The notes under the pieces: generated by a model | Seen by the model: the letters and a program-made list of their open reading frames with translations, nothing else | What the model was told of the DNA's origin: nothing | The model's database searches: none | Position numbers and translations under genes: made by a program | Shown: in pieces, positions 10,275 to 10,645 of the stretch | Numbering within the stretch: the stretch's first letter is position 1 | How the letters are laid out: each line of letters opens with the position of its first letter | Assembly (NCBI RefSeq): GCF_056712565.1 | Contig: NZ_CM160072.1 | DNA length: 64,000 nt | Strand: one strand, 5' to 3'

Positions 10275-10384
10275 ACAGTCCGCCAGGGAAATGCCTGATA
10301 ACATTACGTTAACCAACTGAAAACATGACACAAACCCCTCATACTCCTCCTGTTTCTCTTGCGTGACCGCCTTGTCGTTAATAG

Positions 10385-10435
10385 AATAAAACGATCGATA
10401 AAACAGGTATCGATCGTTACTATCGATCGTTTATA
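10385..10435 (+). promoter_or_regulatory. agn43 phase-variation control region: three GATC (Dam) sites at 10393, 10412, 10425 within the OxyR-binding region
   Basis: Sequence ACGATCGATAAAACAGGTATCGATCGTTACTATCGATCGTTTATAG about 220 bp upstream of the flu start codon. Confidence 0.8.
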
Positions 10436-10645
10436 GTGGTTAATGGTCTGCGAAAAGGCAGCTGAATCTCTTCATCATGCAGAACGGAATTGCACACAAC
10501 GGACTGATACTTCTCTGGCGGATGAGAGAGGGGAAGCATTTATGTCCGGGAAAAACCACTTTATCTGAGCATGCTGTTTTGTACCTGCCGGTATCCACAT
10601 TTGTGGGTACCGGCTTTTTTATTCACCCTCTGTAAGGAAAAGCTG

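What the first reader, a model, noticed from the sequence alone, without database searches (positions are those of the whole stretch)
10275..10645. Regulatory leader of agn43: Dam/OxyR switch plus possible IsrC-like small RNA locus
The three GATC sites in an OxyR-type site at 10393-10428 predict Dam/OxyR epigenetic phase variation of Ag43. In K-12 the small RNA IsrC is recalled to map between yeeP and flu, so the 370-bp spacer here may encode an equivalent transcript.
Basis: partly seen in the sequence, partly recalled or inferred. Interest (0 to 1): 0.4.

Follow-up and report, generated by a model that had tools for sequence, protein, structure and literature searches.

The report
Ag43 on/off switch and leader RNA
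This 371-bp spacer is the well-known control region of the E. coli adhesin gene agn43 (a methylation-dependent on/off switch followed by a leader RNA that ends at a built-in terminator, called IsrC in K-12), present here as the commoner, non-K-12 version, so it is ordinary rather than new.

Summary
Three GATC sites lie at 10393, 10412 and 10425, just downstream of a TAGAAT -10 box. Their 19/13-bp spacing matches the K-12 agn43 operator exactly. They are the only GATCs in 8.3 kb.

Rfam IS102 (= IsrC) matches 10391-10627 at 74.6 bits (gathering score 46), the only such hit in the window. A strong intrinsic terminator (10587-10620, -23.5 kcal/mol) ends 25 nt before the Ag43 start codon at 10646.

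So this is the known agn43 Dam/OxyR phase-variation switch plus its roughly 253-nt leader. The "IsrC-like sRNA" is not a separate gene. It is the leader transcript stopped at the terminator, predicted 228 nt here against 195 nt in K-12.

Only the promoter/GATC module (70% identical) and the terminator-to-ATG segment (93%) are homologous to K-12. The 149-nt leader core shows no detectable similarity. This "long" leader type occurs in 3445 of 5426 complete E. coli genomes.

OxyR binding, methylation states and the transcript ends are inferred by homology, not shown.

Side observations: a GATC-free zone across the island, the same switch module in front of other genes in Citrobacter and Enterobacter, and a second agn43-like GATC triplet at 17547-17581.

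Novelty: already known. Interest: low.

The parts
9363..10274 (+). Upstream neighbour: an intact GTPase-family (YeeP-like) gene. Its K-12 counterpart, yeeP, is a pseudogene.
   Evidence: ORF list. GTPase-family matches are all below the curated cut-offs. Annotated 'GTPase family protein' in strain MCJCHV-1, which has a 100% identical spacer. K-12 yeeP is a pseudogene.
10359..10387 (+). Inferred sigma-70 promoter of agn43: -35 TTGCGT (10359-10364), 17-bp spacer, -10 TAGAAT (10382-10387).
   Evidence: Read from the sequence. It occupies the same position as TTGTCC-17-TAGAAT upstream of the K-12 isrC 5' end. The -10 is nearly invariant in 75 distinct modules. The consensus scan did not report it because the -35 matches only 3 of 6.
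10390..10432 (.). Inferred OxyR operator carrying the three Dam sites: GATC-I 10393-10396, GATC-II 10412-10415, GATC-III 10425-10428.
   Evidence: GATC positions. Spacing of 19 and 13 bp identical to K-12. Module 70% identical to K-12, z = 9.2. GATCs conserved across alleles. OxyR consensus match inconclusive.
10393..10620 (+). Predicted 228-nt terminated leader RNA, the positional equivalent of K-12 IsrC (IS102). The 5' end is inferred at the G of GATC-I; the 3' end is at the terminator T-tract.
   Evidence: Rfam RF00124 hit at 10391-10627, 74.6 bits against a gathering score of 46, the only gathering-level hit in the window. K-12 isrC ends from RefSeq.
10432..10580 (+). Allele-type-specific leader core (the 'long-A' type), with no detectable similarity to the K-12 leader core.
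   Evidence: Global alignment against shuffles gives z = 0.1. Leader types defined from 98 distinct alleles.
10542..10568 (+). Eight-codon upstream ORF (MSGKNHFI*) preceded by a purine-rich Shine-Dalgarno-like run at 10526-10536. Speculative; it is not conserved in the O157 cah-type leader.
   Evidence: Translation. The ATG is replaced by ACG in long-B alleles and by CTG in two others.
10571..10573 (+). Upstream ATG in frame with agn43, 16 nt before the terminator stem. The frame stays open through the terminator, giving a 25-codon extension.
   Evidence: ORF 10571-13765. Translation. In-frame upstream ATGs are also present in K-12-type (-156) and long-B (-123 and -168) leaders, but absent in the third short type.
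10587..10620 (+). Intrinsic terminator: 12-bp G+C-rich stem-loop (10587-10614) followed by T6 (10615-10620), ending 25 nt before the start codon.
   Evidence: Terminator scan. Free energy -23.5 kcal/mol, z = -6.6. 93% identical to K-12 from the terminator to the ATG. Stem essentially invariant in 52 alleles, though these were fetched with a pattern that fixes most stem bases.
10634..10648 (+). Shine-Dalgarno sequence AAGGA (10634-10638) and the agn43 start codon ATG (10646-10648).
   Evidence: Sequence. Same start codon as annotated in RefSeq strains.
10646..13765 (+). agn43 (flu) coding sequence, 1039 aa, an Ag43 autotransporter adhesin.
   Evidence: NCBIfam NF033177 equivalog, 1912.9 bits against a cut-off of 1200. 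RefSeq annotation of the near-identical locus.

Best explanation
The spacer is the regulatory region of agn43, in the common 'long-leader' allelic form.

Step 1, inferred by homology. A sigma-70 promoter (-35 TTGCGT, -10 TAGAAT) starts transcription at about G10393.

Step 2, inferred by homology with the K-12 system. The roughly 40 bp from +1 onward form an OxyR operator containing three Dam sites. When the sites are unmethylated, OxyR binds, blocks transcription and shields the GATCs from Dam, giving a heritable OFF state. When Dam methylates them first after replication, OxyR cannot bind and the gene stays ON.

Step 3, anatomy shown, function inferred. In ON cells a 253-nt leader is made. 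A strong intrinsic terminator at 10587-10620, ending 25 nt before the ATG, stops part of the transcripts. The stopped product is a roughly 228-nt RNA, the equivalent of K-12 IsrC/IS102. Transcripts that read through become agn43 mRNA.

Step 4, speculative. Ribosomes that start at the in-frame ATG 10571, possibly fed by the eight-codon ORF that stops 2 nt before it, would cover the 5' arm of the terminator and favour read-through.

The IsrC-like RNA is thus a by-product, or an attenuation product, of the agn43 leader and not an independent gene.
For: - Three GATCs at K-12 spacing directly after the -10 box.
- Promoter/operator module 70% identical to K-12, z = 9.2. Terminator-to-ATG segment 93% identical, z = 17.9.
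- GATCs and the -10 box are nearly invariant, while neighbouring positions vary in up to 35 of 75 distinct modules.
- These are the only GATCs in 8.3 kb.
- Rfam IS102 full-length hit above the gathering score, and the only such hit in the window.
- Terminator at -23.5 kcal/mol, z = -6.6.
- K-12 isrC is annotated from the G of GATC-I to the terminator T-tract.
- The downstream gene is Ag43.
- The spacer is 100% identical to E. coli MCJCHV-1, and the long leader type is present in 3445 of 5426 complete genomes.
[quoted passage not shown] 2014, J Bacteriol 196:2728); EDL933 listed with two IS102 copies (PMC5331693).
- From my own memory of the Wallecha 2014 abstract, which I could not read here: a functional rho-independent terminator 28 bp upstream of the K-12 start codon, and an upstream in-frame start codon that raises expression. 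The 28-bp figure matches the K-12 sequence (T-tract ends at L001 2012, ATG at 2040).
Against: - No experiment on this allele type could be found in the held literature.
- The textbook OxyR consensus is matched at only 10 of 20 in the register where K-12 scores 14 of 20. The block ATCTAT of the first half-site is replaced by AAAACA.
- The -35 hexamer matches only 3 of 6, and the promoter scan found nothing.
- The transcription start and the RNA 3' end are transferred from the K-12 annotation, not measured.
- The translation-coupled read-through step is weak. The upstream ORF and ATG 10571 are absent from O157-type long-B leaders. The third short leader type has no in-frame upstream start at all. 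The presence of such ATGs is not statistically unusual.
- No conserved antiterminator helix was found.
Confidence: 0.85

Rival explanations
1. The IsrC-like RNA is an independent, trans-acting small RNA gene that happens to sit in front of agn43 and regulates other mRNAs by base pairing.
For: It is annotated as ncRNA 'small RNA IsrC' in K-12 and is a curated Rfam sRNA family, which the window matches. It is a discrete product with a strong terminator. One paper states that its function is 'totally unknown' (PMC3175480).
Against: - Its 5' end coincides with the agn43 promoter and operator, and its 3' end with the leader terminator. No second promoter-like site lies in the spacer on either strand.
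- The 149-nt core, where a seed sequence would lie, is unrelated between the window and K-12 (z = 0.1). It also differs between the long-A and long-B types.
- The held literature treats it as the attenuated leader (PMC5389530).
Confidence: 0.08
2. In this allele type the operator has drifted. The GATC triplet is retained, but OxyR binds poorly or in another register, so agn43 here is constitutive, or switches at very different rates, or uses another protein.
For: - The 15 bp between GATC-I and GATC-II share only 7 of 15 bases with K-12 (by eye).
- The OxyR consensus score in the K-12 register drops from 14 to 10 of 20.
- Scores of 13 or more occur at 16 other positions in the window, so the motif gives no support.
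Against: - The three GATCs, their flanks and their spacing are kept in 92 of 98 distinct alleles of all types, while nearby positions vary freely. That argues for continued selection on the methylation sites.
- The long-type inter-GATC block is itself invariant within the type.
- Ag43 phase variation is reported for strains beyond K-12 in the literature (PMC3764049; PMC11056357 on Nissle 1917), although the allele types in those strains were not checked here.
Confidence: 0.1
3. The leader is a translation-sensing attenuator. The eight-codon ORF (10542-10568) and the in-frame ATG 10571 are its functional core, and ribosome loading there decides whether the terminator forms. This is an add-on to the best explanation, not an alternative to the switch.
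For: - A Shine-Dalgarno-like run lies 5-10 nt before ATG 10542. Its stop codon lies 2 nt before ATG 10571, which is 16 nt before the terminator stem, and the frame is open through the terminator into agn43.
- In-frame upstream ATGs placed before the terminator are found in three of the four leader types at non-homologous positions.
- My recollection of Wallecha 2014 is that the K-12 upstream in-frame start raises expression.
Against: - The ORF start is lost in long-B (ACG) and in two long-A alleles (CTG). The third short type has an in-frame stop just before the terminator and no upstream start.
- The chance of finding an ATG in the open stretches is 0.3-0.6 for each type (my estimate from the lengths).
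- The Shine-Dalgarno-like run is predicted to be paired inside a hairpin.
- No regulatory-codon run is present in the peptide.
Confidence: 0.25

Closest known systems
E. coli K-12 agn43 (flu) Dam/OxyR phase-variation switch
   Same: - Same gene family downstream (Ag43).
- Same -10 box (TAGAAT).
- Three GATCs with identical 19/13-bp spacing, starting 5 nt after the -10 box.
- Same ATCGATCG flanks at GATC-II and GATC-III.
- Same upstream neighbour (yeeP-type GTPase gene) and the same kind of island.
   Different: - The 15 bp between GATC-I and GATC-II share only 7 of 15 bases.
- The -35 is TTGCGT instead of TTGTCC.
- The match to the OxyR consensus in the K-12 register is 10 of 20 rather than 14 of 20.
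- The upstream GTPase gene is intact here and a pseudogene in K-12.
IsrC / IS102 RNA (Rfam RF00124), i.e. the agn43 leader RNA with its rho-independent terminator (Wallecha et al. 2014)
   Same: - Same position and strand.
- The 5' roughly 40 nt (the GATC region) and the 3' roughly 45 nt (terminator hairpin, T6, ATTCACC) are shared.
- The terminator ends 25 nt before the ATG, against 27 nt in K-12.
- Full-length model match above the gathering score.
   Different: - Predicted length 228 nt rather than 195 nt.
- The core (149 nt here, 117 nt in K-12) has no detectable similarity.
- Rfam score 74.6 bits against 252.6.
- The upstream in-frame ATG lies at -75 rather than -156.
Other Dam/OxyR epigenetic switches: Salmonella gtr (P22) and opvAB, and phage Mu mom
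   Same: GATC sites embedded in OxyR half-sites. Methylation and OxyR binding are mutually exclusive (PMC2909390, PMC4856963).
   Different: The gtr and opvAB switches use four GATCs in two alternative OxyR sites upstream of the promoter, so OxyR acts as activator or repressor depending on which site it occupies. Here there is a single repressor site downstream of the -10 box, as in agn43 (PMC2909390).
Classical leader-peptide transcription attenuators (trp, his, thr leaders)
   Same: A long leader, an intrinsic terminator just before the structural gene, and a short ORF upstream of the terminator.
   Different: There is no run of regulatory codons and no conserved antiterminator/anti-antiterminator set. 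The short ORF is not conserved among allele types.

Membership tests
agn43-type Dam/OxyR phase-variation switch | Three GATC (Dam) sites clustered within about 36 bp, with the characteristic spacing | tested here: met
   GATC at 10393, 10412 and 10425. The spacing of 19 and 13 bp is identical to K-12.
agn43-type Dam/OxyR phase-variation switch | Operator overlaps the transcription start, directly downstream of the -10 box of the agn43 promoter | tested here: met
   The -10 TAGAAT at 10382-10387 ends 5 nt before GATC-I, as in K-12, where the annotated isrC 5' end is the G of GATC-I. The start site itself is inferred.
agn43-type Dam/OxyR phase-variation switch | Sequence homology to the experimentally defined K-12 operator | tested here: met
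   70% identity over the 73-bp promoter/operator module, z = 9.2 against shuffles.
agn43-type Dam/OxyR phase-variation switch | Match to the OxyR tetramer consensus ATAGnTnnnAnCTAT-N7-ATAGnTnnnAnCTAT | tested here: inconclusive
   Best score 13 of 20. In the register where K-12 scores 14 of 20, the window scores 10 of 20. Sixteen positions in the window reach 13 or more.
agn43-type Dam/OxyR phase-variation switch | Controls an Ag43-family autotransporter gene | tested here: met
   NF033177 equivalog, 1912.9 bits against a cut-off of 1200.
agn43-type Dam/OxyR phase-variation switch | Methylation-sensitive OxyR binding, GATCs protected in OFF cells, and heritable ON/OFF states | not testable with these tools
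   This needs footprinting, per-molecule methylation calls or reporter assays.
IsrC / IS102 RNA (Rfam RF00124) | Covariance-model score at or above the family's gathering score | tested here: met
   74.6 bits against 46, model positions 1-206 of 206, E = 1.5e-11. K-12 scores 252.6 bits and O157 scores 77.
IsrC / IS102 RNA (Rfam RF00124) | Lies between a yeeP-type gene and flu/agn43 on the flu strand, ending at an intrinsic terminator just before the flu start codon | tested here: met
IsrC / IS102 RNA (Rfam RF00124) | Homology along the whole RNA, including the core | tested here: not met
   The core 10432-10580 against the K-12 core gives z = 0.1, that is, no detectable similarity. Only the two ends are shared.
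IsrC / IS102 RNA (Rfam RF00124) | A discrete short transcript is detectable | not testable with these tools
   This needs a Northern blot, Term-seq or RNA-seq of a strain carrying this allele.
Leader-peptide transcription attenuator | A conserved leader ORF and mutually exclusive terminator and antiterminator helices | tested here: not met
   The eight-codon ORF is lost in long-B alleles. The partners predicted for the terminator's 5' arm differ between leader types and are weak, worth 3-7 kcal/mol.

The most novel reading that the evidence does not exclude
The promoter-plus-three-GATC module may be a portable 'phase-variable cargo promoter' of the CP4-44-type island family, not something peculiar to agn43. 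Three observations point this way.

- The same module sits in Citrobacter and Enterobacter islands in front of unrelated small secreted proteins.
- It lies inside a zone otherwise cleared of GATC sites.
- In E. coli it has been recombined with at least four unrelated or diverged leader cores. These cores keep only the terminator and, in three of the four types, an in-frame upstream start codon.

On this reading the GATC-free surroundings would insulate the epigenetic switch (for example from SeqA or from processive Dam), and the exchangeable leader cores would set allele-specific read-through.
Probability: 0.25. Interest if true: 0.45.

Novelty: already known. Interest (0 to 1): 0.15.

Why it matters
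Ag43 drives cell aggregation and biofilm formation, and its on/off switching creates mixed populations.

Knowing that this strain carries a complete switch plus the leader terminator tells an annotator three things. The gene is likely to be phase-variable. The 'sRNA' annotation there is the attenuated leader. Expression studies on single colonies can mislead (PMC3764049).

The one point that goes beyond the textbook is that the experimentally studied K-12 leader represents only the minority type. The commoner long leader shares just its two ends with it, so conclusions about leader-based control drawn from K-12 may not carry over.

Tried and rejected
1. OxyR consensus scan of the whole window. 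It does not discriminate: the site ranks among 16 positions scoring 13 of 20 or better. I dropped it as evidence.
2. GATC clustering statistic alone. Three sites within 36 bp are expected about once per 64 kb. I replaced it with the local GATC-desert and conservation arguments.
3. Sigma-70 consensus scan of the spacer. It returned no hit because the -35 is weak. The promoter was placed by homology instead.
4. Covariation in 52 long-type leaders. Only 2 of 74 predicted pairs show compensatory change, both in one hairpin (10547-10567). Both stem from the single long-A/long-B block difference, and that hairpin is weak in this allele (-5.4 kcal/mol, z = -0.5). This gives no solid evidence for a structured core.
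5. Search for a conserved antiterminator by folding the nascent RNA of four leader types. The predicted partners differ between types and are weak.
6. Leader-peptide idea. The eight-codon ORF is not conserved.
7. Attempts to read Wallecha 2014 and 2002 and Kaminska 2010. None is held. One literature search was wasted on a word-start match of 'IsrC' to 'ISRCTN'.
8. Second GATC triplet at 17547. No Rfam hit, no convincing promoter next to it, and no informative ORF.
9. Pfam search of the Citrobacter cargo proteins. No family found.

Full report
WHAT IS THERE

The spacer 10275-10645 (371 bp) lies between two ORFs. On the left is the stop codon (TGA 10272-10274) of a 303-aa GTPase-family, YeeP-like ORF. 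On the right is the ATG at 10646 of a 1039-aa ORF. That ORF is an Ag43 autotransporter: NCBIfam NF033177 equivalog, 1912.9 bits against a cut-off of 1200.

The first 22.6 kb of the window differ at only 6 positions from E. coli MCJCHV-1, a cerebrospinal-fluid isolate. In that strain the spacer is 100% identical and the gene is annotated agn43.

THE OBSERVATION

A triplet within 36 bp is not rare in itself. A uniform null gives 1.1 such clusters per 64 kb, and the window has five. Context makes this one special.

- The three sites are the only GATCs between 9277 and 17546.
- The 7.1 kb downstream, which holds agn43 and the rest of the island, contains none where 25-27 are expected. This is by far the largest GATC gap in the window.
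- I collected 98 distinct alleles from metagenomes and genomes using only the terminator sequence as bait. Of these, 92 keep all three GATCs at 19/13-bp spacing, and six have lost one site through a point change.
- In 75 distinct promoter modules, the GATC and -10 positions vary in at most 3 sequences. Positions between the sites vary in up to 35.

THE SWITCH

The module from -35 to GATC-III is 70% identical to K-12 (z = 9.2). It has:

- the same -10 box, TAGAAT (10382-10387), ending 5 nt before GATC-I;
- a -35 at the same distance, TTGCGT (10359-10364) with a 17-bp spacer;
- the same ATCGATCG flanks.

In K-12 this is the operator where OxyR represses agn43 unless Dam has methylated the GATCs. 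The result is heritable ON and OFF states (PMC3764049, PMC2909390).

The textbook OxyR consensus neither supports nor contradicts this. In the register where K-12 scores 14 of 20, the window scores 10 of 20. Its best register scores 13 of 20, a level reached at 16 positions in the window. The 15 bp between GATC-I and GATC-II share only 7 bases with K-12.

Dam/OxyR control of this allele type is therefore a strong inference from homology and from the conservation pattern. It is not shown.

THE RNA

Rfam IS102 (RF00124), which is the K-12 sRNA IsrC, matches 10391-10627 on the plus strand. The score is 74.6 bits against a gathering score of 46, the whole model is covered, and it is the only gathering-level hit in 64 kb.

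RefSeq places K-12 isrC between yeeP and flu, from the G of GATC-I to the last T of the terminator T-tract, a length of 195 nt. The same landmarks here give 10393-10620, or 228 nt.

The terminator is a 12-bp stem (10587-10614) followed by T6. Its free energy is -23.5 kcal/mol with z = -6.6. It ends 25 nt before the ATG, against 27 nt in K-12.

[quoted passage not shown] 2014). I could not read Wallecha 2014. From memory, it reports a functional rho-independent terminator 28 bp upstream of the start codon, and an upstream in-frame start codon that raises expression.

IsrC is therefore the terminated agn43 leader and not a separate gene.

HOW THIS ALLELE DIFFERS FROM K-12

Only the two ends are shared. 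The terminator-to-ATG segment is 93% identical (z = 17.9). The 149-nt core (10432-10580) shows no detectable similarity to the 117-nt K-12 core (z = 0.1). This explains the Rfam scores: 74.6 bits here and 77 for O157 cah, against 252.6 for K-12 and 259 for a third short type.

Four leader types emerged:

- long-A, the type in this window;
- long-B, as in O157 cah, which differs in a block corresponding to 10517-10573;
- the K-12 type;
- a third short type, about 88% identical to K-12.

The long type covers at least 80% of the query in 3445 of 5426 complete E. coli genomes. The K-12 type does so in 1782. EDL933 is already listed with two IS102 copies (PMC5331693), so the match is not new.

IS THERE MORE IN THE LEADER?

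RNAalifold on 52 long-type leaders gave 74 pairs, of which only 2 show compensatory change. Both derive from the single long-A/long-B block difference. The hairpin concerned is weak in this allele. Folding the nascent RNAs of the four types gave no common antiterminator.

An eight-codon ORF (10542-10568, MSGKNHFI) with a Shine-Dalgarno-like run stops 2 nt before an ATG at 10571. That ATG is in frame with agn43 and lies 16 nt before the terminator stem. In-frame upstream ATGs placed before the terminator occur in three of the four leader types at non-homologous positions. They are absent from the third short type, and their presence is not statistically unusual. The short ORF is lost in long-B.

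Translation-aided read-through is therefore plausible but weakly supported.

SURROUNDINGS AND SIDE FINDINGS

- The GATC depletion is a family trait of this kind of island. The core genes of the paralogous K-12 islands CP4-57 and CP4-6, which lack agn43, have 2-8 GATCs where 9-23 are expected. K-12 flu has none.
- The same promoter and three-GATC module precedes two small signal-peptide proteins in Citrobacter braakii, C. amalonaticus and Enterobacter wuhouensis. There it sits in the same type of island, without the IsrC terminator and again inside a local GATC-free zone.
- A second triplet at 17547-17581 (spacing 18/13) resembles the agn43 GATC-II/III region. It lies about 440 bp upstream of mtnK and is at least 99% conserved in about 1057 genomes.

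VERDICT

The feature is the already known agn43 Dam/OxyR switch with its IsrC-producing leader, in the common non-K-12 allelic form.

Noticed in passing
window 9277-17546: GATC desert. Apart from the three switch sites there is no GATC in 8.3 kb, which covers the GTPase gene, agn43, DUF905, DUF932, the antirestriction gene, the JAB/RadC gene, DUF987, the YeeU antitoxin gene and the cbtA fragment. The count is 0 against 25-27 expected in 10429-17546. K-12 flu also has none. The paralogous K-12 islands CP4-57 and CP4-6, which lack agn43, are depleted 3- to 5-fold. The depletion therefore looks like a trait of the island family, comparable to the GATC avoidance known in enterobacterial phages, rather than something caused by the switch.
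   Followed up: partly
window 17547-17581: A second GATC triplet with 18/13-bp spacing. Its GATC-II/III part (GATCGTTAGTGCCGATCGATAAG) resembles the K-12 agn43 operator. It lies in the 740-bp gap between the truncated cbtA at the island end and mtnK. It is single-copy, unannotated and at least 99% conserved in about 1057 of 5426 E. coli genomes. No Rfam hit and no clear promoter lie beside it. It may be another Dam-sensitive protein-binding site.
   Followed up: partly
L005 5108-5144 (-), L007 5671-5707 (-), L009 942-978 (+), L003 7175-7211 (-): In Citrobacter braakii, Enterobacter wuhouensis and C. amalonaticus the same -10 (TAGAAT) plus three-GATC module (19/13 spacing) sits upstream of small signal-peptide proteins. 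L005 and L007 show two (154 and 157 aa, no Pfam family); L009 ends within the first. In L005 and L007 DUF932-like, antirestriction-like and RadC-like genes follow. This is the same island family with different cargo. The leader is about 129 nt and there is no IS102 hit. C. werkmanii has a similar module in front of a 187-aa membrane protein.
   Followed up: partly
L020, L031, L077, L083, L111, L129 (metagenome contigs): Six of the 98 distinct agn43 regulatory alleles have lost one of the three GATCs through a point change (for example GATC to AATC, GATC to TATC, GATC to GATG). They may be natural variants with altered switching.
   Followed up: no
L015 (E. coli PigCaeca_2) and L006 (contig binned as Collinsella): An Ag43/Cah-family gene whose upstream region is unrelated as far as the 3' arm of the terminator, so it has no GATC switch. 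Separately, an E. coli-like long-type leader on a contig assigned to a Collinsella genome bin, with the terminator disrupted; this is probably a binning artefact or an insertion.
   Followed up: no
window 45566-45892: A pair of 9-bp inverted repeats, TTGGGGCCA and TGGCCCCAA, spans 327 bp and is typical of the fimS invertible element. By comparison with MCJCHV-1 the window also carries fimB, fimE and fimA to fimH. Two phase-variable adhesin systems therefore lie about 35 kb apart. The orientation of the element was not determined.
   Followed up: no
window 13771-13818: A G+C-rich hairpin (GCCCCGGTCAT...ATGACCGGGGC) followed by a T run lies right after the agn43 stop codon and is probably the gene's own terminator. 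It produced the two sub-threshold Rfam hits, PsrR1 and NsiR1, which are chance matches to a terminator shape.
   Followed up: no
window 53474-53495, 56221-56251, 57523-57538: Three further clusters of three GATCs within 36 bp; the first has 9-bp spacing. Five clusters in 64 kb is more than a uniform null predicts (P about 0.01). They were not examined.
   Followed up: no
window 9363-10274: The yeeP-type GTPase gene upstream of agn43 is intact here (303-aa ORF; annotated as an 873-bp GTPase family protein gene in MCJCHV-1). K-12 yeeP is a pseudogene. No terminator-like site separates it from the agn43 promoter.
   Followed up: no
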